Positions 663 to 61,528 are shown, counted from the stretch's first letter. The stretch: 64,000 nucleotides of DNA from an uncultured Candidatus Saccharibacteria bacterium (GCA_964517625.1 CAZFBW010000002.1:25893-89892); one strand, 5' to 3'. Numbers and translations are program-made. Notes: a model not told the origin generated them from the letters alone.

Positions 663-3152
663 ATGGCAAAAAAGAGTTCACAACCTGAAAGAAACCAAGA
701 AAATAAGGATAATTCACCAGCTAGTACTGGTTTTAAATCTGTTGATATTTCTCATGAAATGCGTGTTGCGTACTTGGACTATGCGATGAGTGTGATTACC
801 TCGCGTGCGCTTCCTGATGCTCGCGACGGCCTTAAACCAGTGCACCGCAGAATTTTGTTTGCAATGAATAAAATGGGTCTTAGTCCAGGAGCAAAGTTTC
901 GTAAATCAGCATCCATTGTTGGTGAAGTACTTGGTAAGTACCACCCACACGGAGACGCATCTGTATACGATGCCATGGTAAAGTCAGCACAAGATTTTTC
1001 ATATCGTTACCCACTTGTTTTTGGACAAGGAAACTTTGGTTCACTTGATGGTGATGGAGCAGCGGCGATGCGTTACACCGAAGCGAAAATGTCAAAAGTA
1101 TCTATGGAGATGCTTCGTGATATCGAAAAAGAAACCGTACAGATGGTGCCAAACTATGATGGTACAGAAAAAGAACCATCAGTACTTCCAACAGCTGTGC
1201 CAAACATGCTTTTAAACGGTACCCTTGGTATTGCGGTTGGTATGGCGACCAACATCCCGCCACACAACCTAACGGAAGTTGTTGATGCGACAATTCACTT
1301 GATTGATAATCCGCAAGCAACAACCGAAGATCTCTGTGAGTATGTAAAAGGACCAGACTTTCCAGTTGGTGGTGTTGCATTTGGACAATCAGATATTCGC
1401 CAGGCCTACGCAACAGGACGAGGTGGTGTGGTTACGCGAGGTGAAGCGGAAATTGTTGAAACTAAAAACGGACAATTCCAAATTATCATTACCTCAATCC
1501 CATACCGTGTTTTAAAAAGTAATTTGATTGAAAAAATTGCAGACCTTGTTCACGAAAAGAAATTGGAAGGTATCAAAGGGCTTCGTGATGAATCAACCAA
1601 AGACATTCGCGTGGTGATTGATTTGAAATCAGGCGCGCAACCGCAGAAGGTTCTTAACTATTTGTATAAACATACGGAACTTGAATCAACGTTCCACTTC
1701 AACATGGTTGCGCTTGTTGACGGTGTTCCACAAACGCTTTCCCTTAAAGGCGCAATTTCTTCATTTATTGATCACAGAAAAGAAGTTGTTCGTCGTCGTA
1801 CGGAATACGATTTAAAACGCGCGCTTGAACGCGAGCATATTTTACTCGGTCTTAAAAAAGCGCTTGATCACATTGATGAAATTATTAAAATCATCAAGAA
1901 ATCAAAAGATACTCCAGATGCTCACGCACAATTGATGAAGGCATTTAAGTTCTCCGATATTCAAGCAACGGCAATTTTGGAAATGAAATTACAGCGCTTA
2001 GCCGGCCTTGAACGAAAGAAGATTGAAGATGAACTAAAGGCGGTACAGGCTCTCATTGCCGAACTAAAGAGTATTCTTGCGTCGGTAAAGAAGATGAATG
2101 CCATTATCAAGAAAGAGCTTGAAGAGATTAGAGAAAAATACGGCGATGAACGCCGAACAAAAATCGTAAAGCATAAAGCGAAAGAATTTAATCCAGAAGA
2201 TTTGATTCCAGAAGCAGAACAGGTGCTTGTATTTACTGCTGGCGGATACGTAAAGCGAACCGACCCTTCAGAATTTAGAACACAAAAGCGCGGGGGTGTG
2301 GGTGTGGTTGATATGAACACAAAAGAAGAAGACTTTGTGGTTATGTCGCTCACCGCTTCAACACACAGCGACCTCTTGTTCTTCACCGACAAAGGAAAAG
2401 CATATCAAATCAAAATGTATGACCTTCCAGAAGGTAAGCGCGCAACACGCGGAAAATCAATCATGAATTTCCTTCAGTTAACTGATGGCGAAAAAGTGAC
2501 ATCAATACTTCCGATGCCAAAAGACATGAAAGGCAAAGTCGATGAACACATTTCACTCATGATGATTACCAAAGAAGGTACCGTGAAGAAATCAACCGCT
2601 TCAAGCTTTACTGACGTACGCCGAAACGGACTCATTGCTATTCGATTGGAAGATAAAGATGAATTGCTTGCAACACTGTTTGTGTCTCAAAATGACAGCG
2701 TGATTCTTACAACACAAAACGGTCAGTCAATTCGTTTTAATCACAATGACGTTCGCGAAATGGGACGCACCGCAGCGGGTGTGATTGGTATGAAGCTAGA
2801 TAAGGGCGATGTAATCGTGGCGGCGGATAAAATTATTGATGGAACAAAAGGCGGAGAACTTCTCATCATGACTGCAAATGGCTACGGGAAGAAGACAAAA
2901 CTTTCTGAATACAAGATTCAAAAGCGCGGTGGAAGTGGTATTAAAACAGTGAAGATTACGCCAAAAACCGGTAAGCTCATGGTCGCACGTGTTGTTACCG
3001 GAGAAATTGAGGACCTACTCGTCGTTTCAAAGGAATCACAAGTGATTCGTACAGAAATTTCTTCAATTCCAACCCTTGGACGTGATACGCAAGGCGTGCG
3101 CGTGATGAAGATGAGGGAAGGGGATTCTATCGCATCGTTTGACGTTTTGTAA
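663..3152 (+). CDS. gyrA: DNA gyrase subunit A
   Basis: 829 aa; motifs [26 protein letters not shown] and [16 protein letters not shown]; C-terminal beta-pinwheel repeats. Confidence 0.95.
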
Positions 3153-3203
3153 AAAGCTAAAAATTACCCCATCTACGTTGTTGCAACTTCATTTTCGTCT
3201 TTC

Positions 3204-3226
3204 AACGTACTTGAAGTACGTTTCAT
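3204..3226 (+). terminator. hairpin after gyrA (8-bp stem AACGTACT/AGTACGTT)
   Basis: Perfect inverted repeat followed by TCATT; first of two hairpins in the gyrA 3' intergenic region. Confidence 0.35.
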
Positions 3227-3286
3227 TCCAAAAATCCGTGGCGCCCCGTATCTGGTTCAATTTTTACCTTTTTTAAAAATTCGGAC

Positions 3287-3319
3287 CGAGGAGACGACCG
3301 CGTAGCGGTCGTCTCCTCG
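3287..3319. terminator. strong 15-bp perfect hairpin (CGAGGAGACGACCGC-gta-GCGGTCGTCTCCTCG) with no U tail on the + side
   Basis: Perfect palindrome seen directly; the T/A-rich tract lies on the upstream side, so function is ambiguous (terminator or protein-binding site). Confidence 0.35.
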
Positions 3320-3363
3320 TATCCACTAGCAACTAGCAACTATTACCTATAAACTATAGGTAT

Positions 3364-3885
3364 ATGTTTCTCACCCCAGATCATCTTGTTAAAGAACTCT
3401 ATTTGAAGCCGGGCGACAAAGTAGCCGACATTGGATGTGGAACCGGTGCGTATACAATCGCACTTTCTCGAGAAGTTGGAGAAGTTGGCCAGGTTTACGC
3501 TGTTGATGTTCATCGTGACATGCTTCATACACTTTCAAATAATTGTGCGCGGTTTAGTATTCAAAATGTGGATGTTGTCTGGGCAGATATTGAAAAGGGG
3601 ACCCCGCTTGAAAAATACAGCCTGGACGCTTGTGTGCTTTCTAATGTTTTGTTTCAACTTGAAGAGCACGGGAAAGCACTGCGCAACATTCACATGCTCT
3701 TAAAACCCGAAGGGCAGTTGCTCGTTGTTGACTGGAGCCAATCGCACGCAGGCGCCGGTCCACACCCAGCACACGTTATAAGCGAGGCGCGCGCCGAAGA
3801 GTTGGCTCAAGAAAATGGTTTTCGTATTATTAAGCGTTTGCCAGCAGGGAGTTATCATTACGCATTTATAGCACTTTCCGTGTAA
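3364..3885 (+). CDS. class I SAM-dependent methyltransferase
   Basis: Motif I VADIGCGTGAYT; 173 aa typical small MTase fold. Confidence 0.8.
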   Translation: MFLTPDHLVKELYLKPGDKVADIGCGTGAYTIALSREVGEVGQVYAVDVHRDMLHTLSNNCARFSIQNVDVVWADIEKGTPLEKYSLDACVLSNVLFQLEEHGKALRNIHMLLKPEGQLLVVDWSQSHAGAGPHPAHVISEARAEELAQENGFRIIKRLPAGSYHYAFIALSV

Positions 3886-3897
3886 ACTGTACCGTAT

Positions 3898-5202
3898 ATG
3901 AGTATCTTTAAAATCATCATTACCGCTGTCGGCATCATCGCTGCGATTTTCTCCGTTTTGATTTTTTCTGGAAAACTTTCAATAGGAACTGCGTCTAAAA
4001 CACCACAAGGAAGTATCGTTATTTGGGGGACACTACCACAGGACGAGATGAGCAATTTTTTCTATTCATACATGAGTCAGGCAAAGGGTCAGCAAGTAAC
4101 ATATCAATTCGTTAAGGAAGATCAGTTTGCTGAAGCTCTTGTGGAGGCTCTCGCAAGTGGTGTTGGACCTGACGCAATTATTGCGCCGTACCAACTTATT
4201 TTAGAACAAGAAAAAAGGGTGTATCCATTTCCACAAGCATCGTTTCCACAAAAAACATATCGCGATATGTATGTTGATGGAGCATCAATCTTTTGGACAA
4301 ATAGAGGAGCGCTTGCACTTCCTATCGCAATTGAACCAATGGTGTTGTTCTTTAACCGAACCTTGCTCGCTAAACACGGAGTGGCGCTTCCACCTGAGTA
4401 CTGGGATGAATTAAATGATATGGGTCCAAAACTCACCATTCTTACCCAACAGGGGGTGTTTACGGAAAGTGCGATTGCGCTTGGTGCATACGGTAATGTT
4501 TTGTATGCAAAAGATATTTTGACAACGATTATTGCTCAGCTTGGGCAAGCGGTTGTTGTTAAACAAACATCGCAAGACGGCAAAGATAGTTACAGTGTGA
4601 CCGCAAATGCCCCGCTTCAAGAAGGGGGGGATGTGTTACCACTTGCAACCGCCCTTCGCTTCTTTATGGAATTTTCAAATCCAACAAAAATAAAATATAC
4701 CTGGAACCAATTTTTACCAAACGCGCAGGACCAGTTCGTTGCTGAAAAATTAGCTCTCTATGTTGGTTACTATGGTGAAGCAAAAACCATGCGCGAACGA
4801 AACGGGAGAATCGATTTTGATGTGGCTGTGCTTCCACAAACACGCGGATACAACACGCTCGTGACCGGTATGAAACTCTACGGTATGGCAACACTCCTTG
4901 CTGCACGCAACAAGGAAGTTTCGTTTGCGGTTCAATCAGCGCTCGCGTCAGCTTCGTGGTCAAACGTTCTTGCTCCGACAATTGGCGCGCTTCCTCCACA
5001 GCGCGTGTATGTGCAACAACCAAATGTTCCGGAGGTGGTCAAGAAGAGTCTGCTCGTCGCTCGTGGGTGGTATGATTTGAAACCAAGAGATTCCTCTCCT
5101 TTGTTTGAGACGATGGTGCGTGATGTGACAAGTGGTCGTGTTGAGGTGTCTGAAGCAGCGAGCCAGTTTGTACAGCGCTTGCGTGCAAAGTATACTAACT
5201 AA
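3898..5202 (+). CDS. membrane-anchored extracellular solute-binding protein (SBP_bac_1-like)
   Basis: N-terminal TM/signal anchor; segments IVIWGTLPQDEM, GVGPDAIIAPYQLI and NRTLLAKHGVALPPEYWDELNDMGPKLT resemble ABC sugar-binding proteins. Confidence 0.55.
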   Translation: MSIFKIIITAVGIIAAIFSVLIFSGKLSIGTASKTPQGSIVIWGTLPQDEMSNFFYSYMSQAKGQQVTYQFVKEDQFAEALVEALASGVGPDAIIAPYQLILEQEKRVYPFPQASFPQKTYRDMYVDGASIFWTNRGALALPIAIEPMVLFFNRTLLAKHGVALPPEYWDELNDMGPKLTILTQQGVFTESAIALGAYGNVLYAKDILTTIIAQLGQAVVVKQTSQDGKDSYSVTANAPLQEGGDVLPLATALRFFMEFSNPTKIKYTWNQFLPNAQDQFVAEKLALYVGYYGEAKTMRERNGRIDFDVAVLPQTRGYNTLVTGMKLYGMATLLAARNKEVSFAVQSALASASWSNVLAPTIGALPPQRVYVQQPNVPEVVKKSLLVARGWYDLKPRDSSPLFETMVRDVTSGRVEVSEAASQFVQRLRAKYTN

Positions 5203-60531: not shown

Positions 60532-60618
60532 CGATTACTTACCAAGACAAGGTAACCCCATATCTTTTATATAGATAAGTATAGTTATATATTGTACATA
60601 ATGTAGTATACTTACAGT

Positions 60619-61206
60619 ATGATAGAAAGAAGTATTTTAGAAGATTTATATTACAAAGAGAAAAAATCAATGAAAGAGGTTGCAGATATTTTGCAATGCT
60701 CAGTACATAAAGTTTCGTATTGGATGGGGTATCACAATTTTGGTAGGAGATCTATTTCCGAAGGGGTATATATAAAAAACAATCCATACGGAGACCCTTT
60801 TATGTTTAGGCCACCATCCACAAAAAGCGAAGCGGTTCTTTATGGTGTGGGACTTGGACTTTATTGGGGGGAGGGTACAAAGGCAAATAAACACTCTATT
60901 CGTTTGGGAAATACGGATCCAAAACTTATTAAAAAATTTGTTCTTTTTCTTGAAACTTTTTTTGCAATAAGGAAAACTGAGATGCGATTTGGTCTCCAAA
61001 TTTTTAGCACCATGTCTGGTAGGGTAGCAACAGCTTTCTGGGCTAATGAATTAGGTGTTAGTCATAAGCAGTTTATGAAAACAGTTATTACGCCGGCGCG
61101 TAATTTAGGGACATATCATAAAAAAATAAAACACGGCGTTTTAACTGTCTATTTTCATAATAAAAAAGCACGAGATATATTGGTAAAAGAGATTGAAAAA
61201 CTTTGA
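60619..61206 (+). CDS. hypothetical HTH protein; possible LAGLIDADG-like homing-endonuclease relative
   Basis: N-terminal HTH-like KEVADILQCSVHKVSYWM; central GVGLGLYWGEGTKANKHSIRL resembles a single LAGLIDADG motif (weak); AT-rich upstream region; 44 nt upstream of an intron-containing tRNA. Confidence 0.3.
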   Translation: MIERSILEDLYYKEKKSMKEVADILQCSVHKVSYWMGYHNFGRRSISEGVYIKNNPYGDPFMFRPPSTKSEAVLYGVGLGLYWGEGTKANKHSIRLGNTDPKLIKKFVLFLETFFAIRKTEMRFGLQIFSTMSGRVATAFWANELGVSHKQFMKTVITPARNLGTYHKKIKHGVLTVYFHNKKARDILVKEIEKL

Positions 61207-61249
61207 AAAATAAGATAGAATTGTAATCACTTGTTAAAGCAAGAAACAA

Positions 61250-61528
61250 GCCAATGTAGCTCAGTTGGTAGAGCACGTCCATGGTAAATCGCATAGATTT
61301 TGCCCACACAGTCAGTAATGATTTTGTGAATCCCGAATAACGGTTAATAGCCAAACATAGGCCAAGACCGTGGCAGTGAGATGGTTTTATTTCACGGCCC
61401 GAACGACTGACAAGGGTATCCATTTTGTATGGATAAAGATACAGTCTAGCCCCCACATATGTGTTTTTAATAAATTGGGGTGAAAGCGAAGGACGAGGTC
61501 ATCGGTTCAATCCCGATCATTGGCTCCA
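61250..61528 (+). tRNA. tRNA-Thr (GGU) interrupted in the anticodon loop (between nt 36 and 37) by a 203-nt intron; CCA encoded
   Basis: Exon1 GCCAATGTAGCTCAGTTGGTAGAGCACGTCCATGGT (61250-61285) plus exon2 AAGGACGAGGTCATCGGTTCAATCCCGATCATTGGCTCCA (61489-61528) join into a perfect 76-nt cloverleaf: 7-bp acceptor, CGTCC/GGACG anticodon stem, loop AUGGUAA. Confidence 0.75.
61286..61488 (+). ncRNA. group-I-like self-splicing intron within tRNA-Thr
   Basis: 5' exon ends in U and the intron ends in G (omega-G); R-like AACGACUGACAAGGG and S-like AAGAUACAGUCUAGCC give a compensatory P7 pairing GACUG/CAGUC; 3' hairpin CCCCC...GGGG; no ORF inside. Confidence 0.55.

What the first reader, a model, noticed from the sequence alone, without database searches (positions are those of the whole stretch)
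60619..61528. Possible free-standing HTH/LAGLIDADG-like endonuclease gene immediately upstream of the intron-containing tRNA
The 195-aa ORF at 60619-61206 lies in an AT-rich patch 44 nt upstream of the tRNA-Thr intron locus. It has an N-terminal HTH-like segment and a central segment (GVGLGLYWGEGTKANKHSIRL) that loosely resembles a single LAGLIDADG motif followed by the usual beta-strand and Lys. Homing endonucleases frequently accompany group I introns. A free-standing one beside the intron would suggest a mobile intron/HEG unit. The motif assignment is weak.
Basis: inference. Interest (0 to 1): 0.55.

Follow-up and report, generated by a model that had tools for sequence, protein, structure and literature searches.

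The report
Mobile LAGLIDADG-like gene beside tRNA-Thr
The ORF is a real gene for a helix-turn-helix plus LAGLIDADG-fold protein, most likely a free-standing homing endonuclease, carried on a 709-base cassette that the closest relatives lack and belonging to a large unannotated family whose members always sit at the 5' edge of a particular tRNA gene.

Summary

The family is unannotated: over 1,000 90%-identity clusters and 427 species genomes, all Patescibacteria. In 79 of 79 informative genomes it lies directly 5' of tRNA-Thr(GGT), and in 34 of 73 it uses the tRNA's U8-A9-G10 as its stop codon. Divergent paralogs sit in the same position before tRNA-Trp, Tyr, Thr(TGT), Gln and Met. Phage relatives lie inside tRNA clusters.

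Two closest relatives with the same synteny lack the gene. One has an uninterrupted tRNA-Thr 74/74 identical to the window's spliced exons. The window therefore carries two insertions: a 709-nt cassette (60534-61242) and the 203-nt group I intron. Decayed gene remnants occur elsewhere.

Gene and intron are enriched together but separable: 28 of 79 genes have no intron and 53 of 100 introns have no gene.

Best reading: a selfish free-standing homing endonuclease aimed at the tRNA-Thr locus. Nuclease activity and target site are untested.

The parts
60534..61242 (+). 709-nt cassette present in the window but absent from the two closest relatives. It replaces their ~39-nt DUF167-to-tRNA spacer.
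   Evidence: blastn homology to L221 and L222 stops at 60532/60533 and resumes at 61243/61248. No terminal inverted repeats or target-site duplication.
60619..61206 (+). ORF of 195 aa: HTH plus single LAGLIDADG-like domain protein, a candidate free-standing homing endonuclease.
60619..60783 (+). N-terminal helix-turn-helix DNA-binding module (residues 1-55; helices 4-13, 18-24, 29-38, 46-54).
60814..61203 (+). LAGLIDADG-like core (residues 66-195): H69-85, E93-98, H101-115, E123-128, inserted H134-145, E174-180, H182-194.
60850..60882 (+). Motif GLGLYWGEGTK (residues 78-88). E85 (60871-60873) lies at the C-terminal end of helix 1 and is the candidate metal-binding catalytic residue. K88 follows it.
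   Evidence: W83, G84, E85 and G86 are invariant in 82 of 82 species-level proteins and conserved in all paralog and phage subfamilies. A weak hhalign match places it on I-DmoI GLYVAEGDK.
60910..60921 (+). Second conserved motif NTDP (residues 98-101) at the beta2/alpha2 junction.
   Evidence: N98 is invariant and D100 is present in 77 of 82. N(S/T)DP is conserved across the superfamily.
60566..60593 (+). Promoter-like site upstream of the ORF (9 of 12 matches).
   Evidence: a consensus match only
61193..61221 (+). Best promoter-like site (TTGAAA-17-TAGAAT, 10 of 12). It overlaps the last codons of the ORF, ~28 nt before the tRNA, and probably replaces the relatives' own tRNA promoter.
   Evidence: The relatives' spacer carries TTTTTTGCTATAAT instead.
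61250..61285 (+). tRNA-Thr(GGT) 5' exon (tRNA positions 1-36).
   Evidence: Identical to the L221 uninterrupted tRNA.
61286..61488 (+). 203-nt ORF-less divergent group I intron inserted at tRNA position 36/37.
   Evidence: Covariation in P1, P2, P5, P6, P8 and P9, invariant P4 and P7, and U.G at the 5' splice site in 48 of 48. This intron type is described in PMC13011429.
61489..61528 (+). tRNA-Thr(GGT) 3' exon, including the encoded CCA.

Best explanation
The ORF encodes a free-standing, single-domain LAGLIDADG-type homing endonuclease fused to an N-terminal HTH DNA-binding module. It sits on a 709-nt selfish cassette that has inserted at the 5' edge of the tRNA-Thr(GGT) gene. Shown: the fold, the invariant acidic residue at the end of the LAGLIDADG helix, the strict linkage to tRNA-Thr(GGT), the empty sites in the closest relatives, the decayed copies elsewhere, and the paralogs and phage relatives that also sit beside tRNA genes. 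Inferred: the protein dimerises and cuts cassette-less alleles in or beside the tRNA-Thr gene, and repair from a cassette-bearing copy then copies the gene in. The ORF-less group I intron 80 nt downstream would be carried along by co-conversion, or would benefit from the same break. The gene later decays while the self-splicing intron can persist. Placing the ORF in the tRNA leader, often with its stop codon inside the tRNA, keeps the tRNA expressed and so limits the cost to the host.
For: 2. Motif: E85, G84, G86, W83 and N98 are invariant in 82 of 82 proteins and kept in every paralog and phage subfamily. The phage relative L214 scores LAGLIDADG_3 E=8e-4. The HTH matches the DNA-binding module of phage endonuclease families.
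3. Site specificity: 79 of 79 informative species genomes have the gene directly 5' of tRNA-Thr(GGT) although the upstream neighbours differ.
4. Paralogs lie directly 5' of Trp, Tyr, Thr(TGT), Gln and Met tRNAs, and phage relatives lie inside tRNA clusters.
5. Mobility: L221 and L222 (TrmD 85% and 94% identical, same synteny) lack the cassette. L221 also lacks the intron, and its tRNA is 74/74 identical to the window's spliced exons. L218 and L219 are also empty.
6. Decay: L153 has lost the core, and seven loci keep only the last 20-31 codons.
7. Faster divergence than neighbouring genes: 57-64% identity against 76-86%.
8. Intron enrichment: 51 of 79 gene-bearing loci have the intron, against 3 of 95 complete Patescibacteria genomes in PMC13011429.
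Against: No nuclease activity, dimerisation or target site has been tested. Pfam LAGLIDADG_3 is below the cut-off (14.3 and 20.1 bits against 22.5). Foldseek found no significant match in the PDB or BFVD, and sequence searches of the PDB found nothing. The protein tree partly follows taxonomy, for example the Peribacteria and Saccharimonadales clusters. The family is under strong purifying selection, which also fits long vertical retention for a host function. The gene co-resides with intron-less tRNA alleles whose anticodon arm matches the intron-bearing ones (L059, L045, L013, L031, L055), so immunity to self-cleavage is unexplained if the cut is in the anticodon loop. Protein and intron distances are uncorrelated (r=0.05, p=0.20).
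Confidence: 0.6

Rival explanations
1. Collaborative homing in the strict sense. The enzyme cuts intron-less tRNA-Thr(GGT) alleles at the intron insertion site in the anticodon loop. The intron splits that site and so protects the carrier genome. Gene and intron then move together as one unit.
For: The gene lies 80 nt from the insertion site of an ORF-less intron. The anticodon arm CGTCC-ATGGTAA-GGACG is an inverted repeat, which suits a homodimeric single-domain enzyme (inference). The intron is strongly enriched next to the gene. 46 of 47 intron-bearing alleles share CC..GG at positions 30-31/39-40, against 5 of 26 intron-less alleles. The closest relative lacks both the gene and the intron.
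Against: 28 of 79 genes sit beside an intron-less tRNA. Five or six of these have the same CC..GG arm, and L059 has the exact exon context of the commonest intron-bearing allele. 53 of 100 intron-bearing loci lack an intact gene. There is no protein-intron co-phylogeny. Paralogs beside Trp, Tyr, Gln and Met tRNAs mostly have no intron. The CC..GG pattern can also be explained by P10/anticodon-stem constraints of the ribozyme and by lineage effects.
Confidence: 0.2
2. A domesticated LAGLIDADG protein, analogous to WhiA. It would be a sequence-specific DNA-binding factor that no longer cuts DNA and acts in cis on its tRNA gene, for example on its promoter. The host would retain it rather than the gene spreading selfishly.
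Against: The closest relatives do without it at an otherwise identical locus. Copies decay by deletion of the core. The acidic residue that WhiA and maturases typically lose (established knowledge) is invariant here across all subfamilies. Relatives occur in phage tRNA clusters. The gene diverges faster than neighbouring housekeeping genes.
Confidence: 0.2
3. A free-standing maturase that binds the divergent group I intron RNA and helps it fold and splice.
For: LAGLIDADG proteins can act as maturases (established knowledge). The gene is enriched beside the intron-bearing tRNA. The intron is a divergent, compact group I form (PMC13011429).
Against: 35% of family members, and most paralogs, sit beside intron-less tRNAs with all invariant residues intact. 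About half of the introns have no intact gene nearby. Known maturases are intron-encoded.
Confidence: 0.05

Closest known systems
Single-domain LAGLIDADG homing endonucleases (I-CreI, I-CeuI, I-MsoI; CPR rRNA-intron enzyme I-ShaI, PMC11270868) and I-DmoI
   Same: The alpha-beta-beta-alpha-beta-beta-alpha core, with one LAGLIDADG-type helix ending in an acidic residue followed by Gly. Size fits a homodimeric enzyme. Single-domain LAGLIDADG enzymes are known to be active homodimers in CPR bacteria.
   Different: This gene is free-standing rather than intron- or intein-encoded. It has an extra N-terminal HTH and an extra helix between beta3 and beta4. The sequence is too divergent for Pfam LAGLIDADG_1/2/3 or PDB sequence searches. 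It is linked to tRNA genes rather than rRNA genes.
Phage T4 SegB, a free-standing GIY-YIG homing endonuclease in the tRNA gene cluster (PMC2330249)
   Same: A free-standing endonuclease gene lodged among tRNA genes. Its recognition site includes a conserved tRNA motif, and it drives inheritance of itself and the neighbouring tRNA genes. The phage relatives of this family also sit in tRNA clusters.
   Different: The catalytic family differs (GIY-YIG against LAGLIDADG-like). SegB is a phage gene, whereas this is a cellular chromosome. Here each subfamily is fixed to the 5' edge of one specific tRNA gene, often sharing its stop codon with the tRNA.
Collaborative or trans homing: F-CphI with the cyanophage psbA intron (PMC6083498), and T4 mobE with I-TevIII (PMC2790892)
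   Same: A free-standing endonuclease gene next to a gene that carries an ORF-less (or defunct-ORF) group I intron, with the possibility that one break mobilises both.
   Different: Here the gene and the intron are frequently found apart and show no co-phylogeny. The cleavage site is unknown. The host gene is a chromosomal tRNA of Patescibacteria.
WhiA (DUF199), a domesticated LAGLIDADG plus HTH transcription factor
   Different: WhiA has two degenerate LAGLIDADG domains, a C-terminal HTH and no catalytic acidic residues, and it is a conserved housekeeping gene (established knowledge). This protein has one domain, an N-terminal HTH and an invariant Glu, and it is patchy in distribution with empty sites and decayed copies.

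Membership tests
LAGLIDADG homing endonuclease fold | alpha-beta-beta-alpha-beta-beta-alpha core domain | tested here: met
LAGLIDADG homing endonuclease fold | LAGLIDADG helix ending in a conserved acidic residue (metal ligand) followed by Gly | tested here: met
   GLGLYWGEG occupies the C-terminal end of helix 69-85. E85 and G86 are invariant in 82 of 82 proteins and in all subfamilies.
LAGLIDADG homing endonuclease fold | Match to a curated LAGLIDADG profile (Pfam LAGLIDADG_1/2/3) above the gathering score | tested here: not met
   LAGLIDADG_3 scores 14.3 bits (E=0.049) for the window protein and 20.1 bits (E=8e-4) for the phage relative L214. The cut-off is 22.5. PDB profile search found nothing.
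LAGLIDADG homing endonuclease fold | Site-specific double-strand DNA cleavage leaving 4-nt 3' overhangs; homodimer for single-domain enzymes | not testable with these tools
   This needs purified protein and substrates. A dimer model could not be submitted.
Homing endonuclease gene as a selfish mobile element | Always found at one specific site in a conserved host gene or locus | tested here: met
   79 of 79 informative loci lie directly 5' of tRNA-Thr(GGT). Paralogs lie 5' of other specific tRNAs.
Homing endonuclease gene as a selfish mobile element | Presence/absence polymorphism at the same locus among close relatives (empty target sites) | tested here: met
   L221, L222, L218 and L219 are empty. 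The cassette boundaries are 60534 and 61242.
Homing endonuclease gene as a selfish mobile element | Degenerate or deleted copies (gain, decay and loss cycle) | tested here: met
   L153 has its core deleted. L209, L156, L107, L175, L198, L095 and L141 keep only C-terminal remnants, at E 4e-10 to 5e-3 against 0.056 in shuffled controls.
Homing endonuclease gene as a selfish mobile element | Horizontal spread (gene tree incongruent with host tree) | tested here: inconclusive
   The NJ tree partly follows taxonomy. The protein diverges faster than its neighbours. No host marker tree was available.
Collaborative homing (free-standing HEG plus ORF-less intron) | The endonuclease cuts the intron-less allele at the intron insertion site, and the intron confers immunity | not testable with these tools
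   Indirect evidence is mixed. The intron is enriched next to the gene (51 of 79 against 3 of 95), but 28 of 79 genes sit beside intron-less tRNAs, some with an identical exon context.
Collaborative homing (free-standing HEG plus ORF-less intron) | Gene and intron inherited or moved as one unit | tested here: not met
   53 of 100 intron-bearing loci lack an intact gene. Mantel protein against intron gives r=0.05, p=0.20 (a weak test).
Group I intron (for the adjacent insert) | P1 with U.G at the 5' splice site, a P3-P9 core with the P7/P3/P8 arrangement, and a terminal G | tested here: met
   U.G in 48 of 48. Covariation in P1, P2, P5, P6, P8 and P9. P4 and P7 are invariant, and the intron ends in G. 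Rfam RF00028 does not detect it, as reported in PMC13011429. Self-splicing was not tested.
IS or transposon cassette | Terminal inverted repeats, target-site duplication, or a transposase fold | tested here: not met
   No terminal repeats or duplication at 60534/61242. The fold is LAGLIDADG-like.

The most novel reading that the evidence does not exclude
These proteins are not merely selfish endonucleases but a Patescibacteria-wide (and phage-borne) system of tRNA-gene-specific factors. Each is translated from the leader of its own tRNA, with its stop codon inside the tRNA (U8-A9-G10), so that RNase P processing and translation of the same transcript compete. The factors would act on tRNA genes for the cell or the phage, for example through directed gene conversion or repair of tRNA loci, or in host-phage conflict over tRNA genes. 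They would also be the hidden engine that spreads ORF-less group I introns among bacterial tRNA genes.
Probability: 0.12. Interest if true: 0.85.

Novelty: new variant of a known kind. Interest (0 to 1): 0.62.

Why it matters
Three reasons.

1. It gives a fold and a likely function to a large family that public records list as 'hypothetical protein'. The family has over 1,000 clusters, 427 species genomes, and several paralogous subfamilies.

2. It shows a genomic rule I did not find described in the papers I could search. Each subfamily sits at the 5' edge of one specific tRNA gene and often ends on the tRNA's own UAG. This would be a new way for a homing-endonuclease gene to lodge harmlessly in a cellular chromosome.

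3. It bears on how ORF-less group I introns in bacterial tRNA genes move. A 2026 survey concluded that Patescibacteria tRNA introns mostly lack endonuclease genes and so have limited mobility (PMC13011429). A free-standing endonuclease 27-80 nt from the tRNA-Thr intron site is a concrete candidate driver, and it can be tested because a natural empty allele (L221) is in hand.

If active, these enzymes would also be compact, new-specificity meganucleases that recognise tRNA-gene sequences.

Tried and rejected
- **hhalign to I-CreI.** No usable alignment.
- **D100N as a marker of inactivated enzymes beside cleavable intron-less tRNAs.** Rejected: 5 proteins carry it, 3 of them beside intron-bearing tRNAs.
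- **Gene remnant at the L219 and L218 empty sites.** None found. There is only a ~50-nt nucleotide similarity over the tRNA promoter region, treated as tentative.
- **Transposon or integrative-element origin.** Rejected: no terminal repeats, the flanks are housekeeping genes, and the gene lies at the tRNA 5' side rather than the 3' side.
- **Superfamily size from the representative library.** The counts are inflated by unrelated long proteins with tandem HTH modules, so only the E<=1e-30 figure (134 clusters) is quoted, with that caveat.
- **Castelle et al. 2018 (ref 10 of PMC13011429).** Could not be read.

Full report
**1. The observation.** The ORF at 60619-61206 (+) exists and encodes 195 aa. 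The quoted segment GVGLGLYWGEGTKANKHSIRL is residues 76-96. Forty-three nucleotides after the stop codon a split tRNA-Thr(GGT) begins. Its 5' exon is 61250-61285, a 203-nt insert follows at 61286-61488 between tRNA positions 36 and 37, and the 3' exon is 61489-61528. Default ARAGORN and Rfam both miss this tRNA and intron. The ORF region has about 35% GC against 38-51% in the flanks. The ORF is a real gene: 1,069 homologous 90%-identity clusters were found at 52-66% identity, nearly all unnamed and without Pfam domains. The few that carry names are from Patescibacteria, and one JGI record calls its copy 'intein/homing endonuclease'. A 51-sequence alignment has 35 invariant columns, including GxGxGLYWGEGxK and LGNTDP. 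The conserved N-terminus shows that the public 178-aa gene call (P0001) starts 17 codons too late.

**2. What the protein is.** Pfam gives only sub-threshold hints: several HTH families at residues 3-35, and LAGLIDADG_3 at residues 80-118 (E=0.049, 14.3 bits against a cut-off of 22.5). An AlphaFold2 model built on the alignment is confident (pLDDT 89.6, pTM 0.75). It shows a small N-terminal helical HTH bundle (residues 4-54) followed by H69-85, E93-98, H101-115, E123-128, an extra helix 134-145, E174-180 and H182-194.

- Foldseek found nothing significant in the PDB.
- The motif GLYWGEG ends helix 1, so E85 sits where LAGLIDADG enzymes carry their metal-binding Asp or Glu.
- W83, G84, E85, G86 and N98 are invariant in 82 of 82 species-level proteins. 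They are kept in every divergent subfamily, including the phage ones.
- The HTH matches the DNA-binding module of two phage 'HNH endonuclease' PHROG families at E about 1e-5. Phage relatives pass Pfam's HTH_23 and HTH_38 cut-offs, and one reaches LAGLIDADG_3 E=8e-4.

The family is too divergent to count as a member of any curated LAGLIDADG profile.

**3. Linkage to the tRNA.** I fetched 80 species-representative genome loci out of 427 that encode a relative. They span Saccharimonadales, Peribacteria, Paceibacterota, Moraniibacteriota, Doudna-, Magasanik-, Kaiser- and Adlerbacteria and others.

- In all 79 informative loci the gene lies directly upstream of, and co-oriented with, tRNA-Thr(GGT), although the genes further upstream differ.
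- In 34 of 73 automatically scored loci the ORF ends exactly on the tRNA's U8-A9-G10, read as TAG. In 40 of 73 the ORF overlaps the tRNA.
- 51 loci carry the 179-229-nt insert at position 36/37 and 28 have an uninterrupted tRNA.
- ARAGORN mislabels many of the split tRNAs as Arg(GCG) or His(GTG), as reported in PMC13011429.

The constant partner of the gene is the tRNA gene. The intron is a variable extra.

**4. The intron.** In 48 distinct introns, RNAalifold recovers P1 (exon GGU paired with an internal guide), with U.G at the splice site in 48 of 48 and covarying extension pairs. It also recovers P2, P4/P5, P6, P7 enclosing P8, and P9. There are many double compensatory changes, P4 and P7 are invariant, a CCC/GGG P3 is present, and the intron ends in G. 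This agrees with the 'divergent group I intron' of tRNA-Thr(GGU) 36/37 that Nakagawa et al. 2026 describe. They found it in 3 of 95 complete Patescibacteria genomes and noted that RF00028 misses it. That paper infers limited mobility because tRNA introns mostly lack endonuclease genes, and it does not mention an adjacent free-standing gene. I found no paper in the library that does.

**5. Gene and intron are associated but separable.** A metagenome scan with a conserved intron-core pattern returned 120 loci.

- Of the 100 loci with enough upstream sequence, 47 have the gene and 53 do not.
- The intron is still far commoner beside the gene (51 of 79) than in Patescibacteria generally (3 of 95).
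- 46 of 47 intron-bearing alleles share CC..GG at tRNA positions 30-31/39-40, against 5 of 26 intron-less alleles beside the gene. That could reflect a homing-site requirement or co-conversion. It could equally reflect ribozyme (P10/anticodon-stem) constraints and lineage effects.
- On an NJ protein tree the intron state changes 17 times (shuffled mean 23.3, minimum 17). Peribacteria and Saccharimonadales form coherent clusters.
- Protein and intron distances are uncorrelated (Mantel r=0.05, p=0.20). Protein and mature tRNA distances correlate modestly (r=0.27, p=0.002). This test is weak because the peripheral intron helices align poorly.

**6. Evidence that the gene is mobile and dispensable.**

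- The window genome's closest relatives were found through TrmD. L222 (TrmD 94% aa, flank DNA 85% nt) and L221 (TrmD 85% aa, flank DNA about 76% nt) have the same S16-KH-TrmD-DUF167 synteny.
- In both, the DUF167 stop is followed by a spacer of about 39-47 nt with an extended -10 promoter (TTTTTTGCTATAAT) and then tRNA-Thr(GGT), with no gene.
- L221's tRNA is uninterrupted and 74/74 identical to the window's spliced exons.
- Homology to the window stops at 60533 and resumes at 61243. The window therefore carries two insertions relative to its nearest kin: a 709-nt cassette (60534-61242) holding the ORF, and the 203-nt intron.
- The cassette has no terminal repeats or target duplication. It carries its own promoter-like sites, the best of which (TTGAAA-17-TAGAAT, 61193-61221) overlaps the ORF's last codons.
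- Two further relatives (L218, L219) are also empty. L001 has both gene and intron, and L010 has the gene without the intron.
- The protein is 57-64% identical between these genomes, while RNase R, S16, KH and TrmD are 76-86% identical.
- Among the 'gene-less' intron-bearing loci, one has an intact inverted copy (L164). L153 keeps only the first 40 and last 27 residues, so its catalytic core is deleted. Seven others keep only the last 20-31 codons against the tRNA (E 4e-10 to 5e-3; best shuffled control 0.056). These surviving codons coincide with the tRNA promoter region in the window, which may explain why they persist.

**7. A wider superfamily at tRNA genes.** I scanned all ORFs in the held sequence with the family HMM. 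It finds divergent paralogs (HMM scores 41-123 bits). Each one in a Patescibacteria contig lies directly upstream of, and co-oriented with, a tRNA:

| tRNA | Loci | Offset to tRNA start |
|---|---|---|
| Trp(CCA) | eight loci | four at -9 |
| Tyr(GTA) | four loci | -37 to +5 |
| Thr(TGT) | two loci | +2 |
| Gln(TTG) | one locus | +43 |
| Met(CAT) | one locus | -20 |

Five contigs carry two family members, each before its own tRNA. One Tyr-type paralog (L165) precedes a tRNA-Tyr that itself carries a classical group I intron at position 35/36. Other Tyr-type paralogs precede intron-less tRNA-Tyr. Seven relatives on 100-500 kb viral contigs (27-32% identity over the longer matches) lie inside or beside tRNA clusters. 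The window has only the one copy. A profile search of 1.84 billion representatives finds 134 clusters at E<=1e-30. Larger counts are inflated by long proteins with 5-14 tandem copies of the HTH module alone.

**8. Interpretation.** The best-supported reading is a free-standing LAGLIDADG-type homing endonuclease gene aimed at the tRNA-Thr(GGT) locus. It belongs to a family whose subfamilies each target one tRNA gene.

- Shown: the fold, the conserved acidic residue, site-specific placement, empty sites in the nearest relatives, decay products, faster divergence than the neighbours, and phage relatives in tRNA clusters.
- Inferred: dimerisation, DNA cleavage, the position of the cut, and repair-mediated copying.

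Two variants remain open. In strict collaborative homing, the cut is at the intron site and the intron protects the carrier. This fits the intron enrichment and the joint absence of gene and intron in L221. It is contradicted by the many genes beside intron-less, apparently identical target arms, and by the mostly intron-less paralog loci. The alternative is more general: the recognition site spans the tRNA 5' edge and is destroyed by the cassette itself, and the intron hitch-hikes by co-conversion, as in T4 mobE/I-TevIII trans homing.

A domesticated WhiA-like DNA-binding role cannot be excluded, given the strong purifying selection and the partly taxonomy-following tree. It fits poorly with the empty sites, the decay and the invariant Glu. 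A maturase role is unlikely.

**9. Comparison and novelty.** The protein works like known single-domain LAGLIDADG enzymes, including the CPR rRNA-intron enzyme I-ShaI, an active homodimer (PMC11270868). Its life-style resembles T4 SegB, a free-standing GIY-YIG enzyme in a tRNA cluster that recognises a tRNA T-psi-C motif (PMC2330249). It fails the curated-profile test for the LAGLIDADG families. The following features are not described in the literature I could search:

- the HTH-first architecture;
- the fixed position at the 5' edge of specific chromosomal tRNA genes, with a stop codon shared with the tRNA;
- the subfamily-to-tRNA correspondence;
- the link to ORF-less tRNA introns.

I rate it a new variant of a known kind, with interest 0.62. 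The natural empty allele (L221) makes the central claim directly testable.

Noticed in passing
L019, L050, L073, L090, L128, L115, L145, L185, L206, L208, L198, L109, L142, L107 (coordinates): Divergent paralogs of the protein sit directly upstream of, and co-oriented with, tRNA-Trp(CCA), Tyr(GTA), Thr(TGT), Gln(TTG) and Met(CAT). Several end on the tRNA's own UAG (offset -9). Some contigs carry two family members, each before its own tRNA.
   Followed up: partly
L165:766-1036: A Tyr-subfamily paralog ends 7 nt before a tRNA-Tyr(GTA) that carries a classical group I intron at position 35/36. ARAGORN mislabels it Ser(tga). This is a second gene-plus-intron-tRNA pairing, on the same contig as an intron-bearing tRNA-Thr(GGT).
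   Followed up: partly
L211-L216 (viral contigs of 100-500 kb), match at about 3001-3400 in each: Phage-borne relatives lie inside or beside tRNA gene clusters. They share 27-32% identity over the longer matches and the same LYWGEG and NSDP motifs. L215 sits in a 12-tRNA array just after tRNA-Thr(GGT).
   Followed up: partly
P0252, P0254, P0260, P0274, P0275 and many others: Long proteins of 400-820 aa contain 5-14 tandem copies of just the N-terminal HTH module (residues ~3-50) of this family. Their function and context are unknown.
   Followed up: no
L219:4560-4605: About 120 nt downstream of the intron-less tRNA-Thr(GGT) (4382-4455), its 3' end (GATTCTGATTATCGGCTCAAAA) is repeated. This looks like the scar or attachment-site duplicate of an integrative element.
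   Followed up: no
L055 and L072 (around 3088-3160): In these two genomes the homolog's reading frame has no stop at U8-A9-G10 and runs through most or all of the intron-less tRNA-Thr gene before terminating.
   Followed up: no
L164:3849-4433: An intact family member lies next to the intron-bearing tRNA-Thr but in inverted orientation. It is the only such case seen.
   Followed up: no
window:61073-61160: An imperfect inverted repeat with arms of ~27 nt (61073-61095 and 61134-61160, 87-92% complementary) lies inside the 3' part of the ORF. I did not check whether it is conserved or functional.
   Followed up: no
window:60619-60669: The public gene call for this ORF (P0001, 178 aa) starts at Met18. 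The conserved residues L7, Y11 and S17 show that the true start is the ATG at 60619.
   Followed up: yes
window:61204-61249: The spacer between the ORF and the tRNA gives a weak RAGATH-30 match (20.7 bits against a gathering score of 59.5, E=0.11) because of a small hairpin (CACTTGTTAAAGCAAG). I judged it to be chance.
   Followed up: partly
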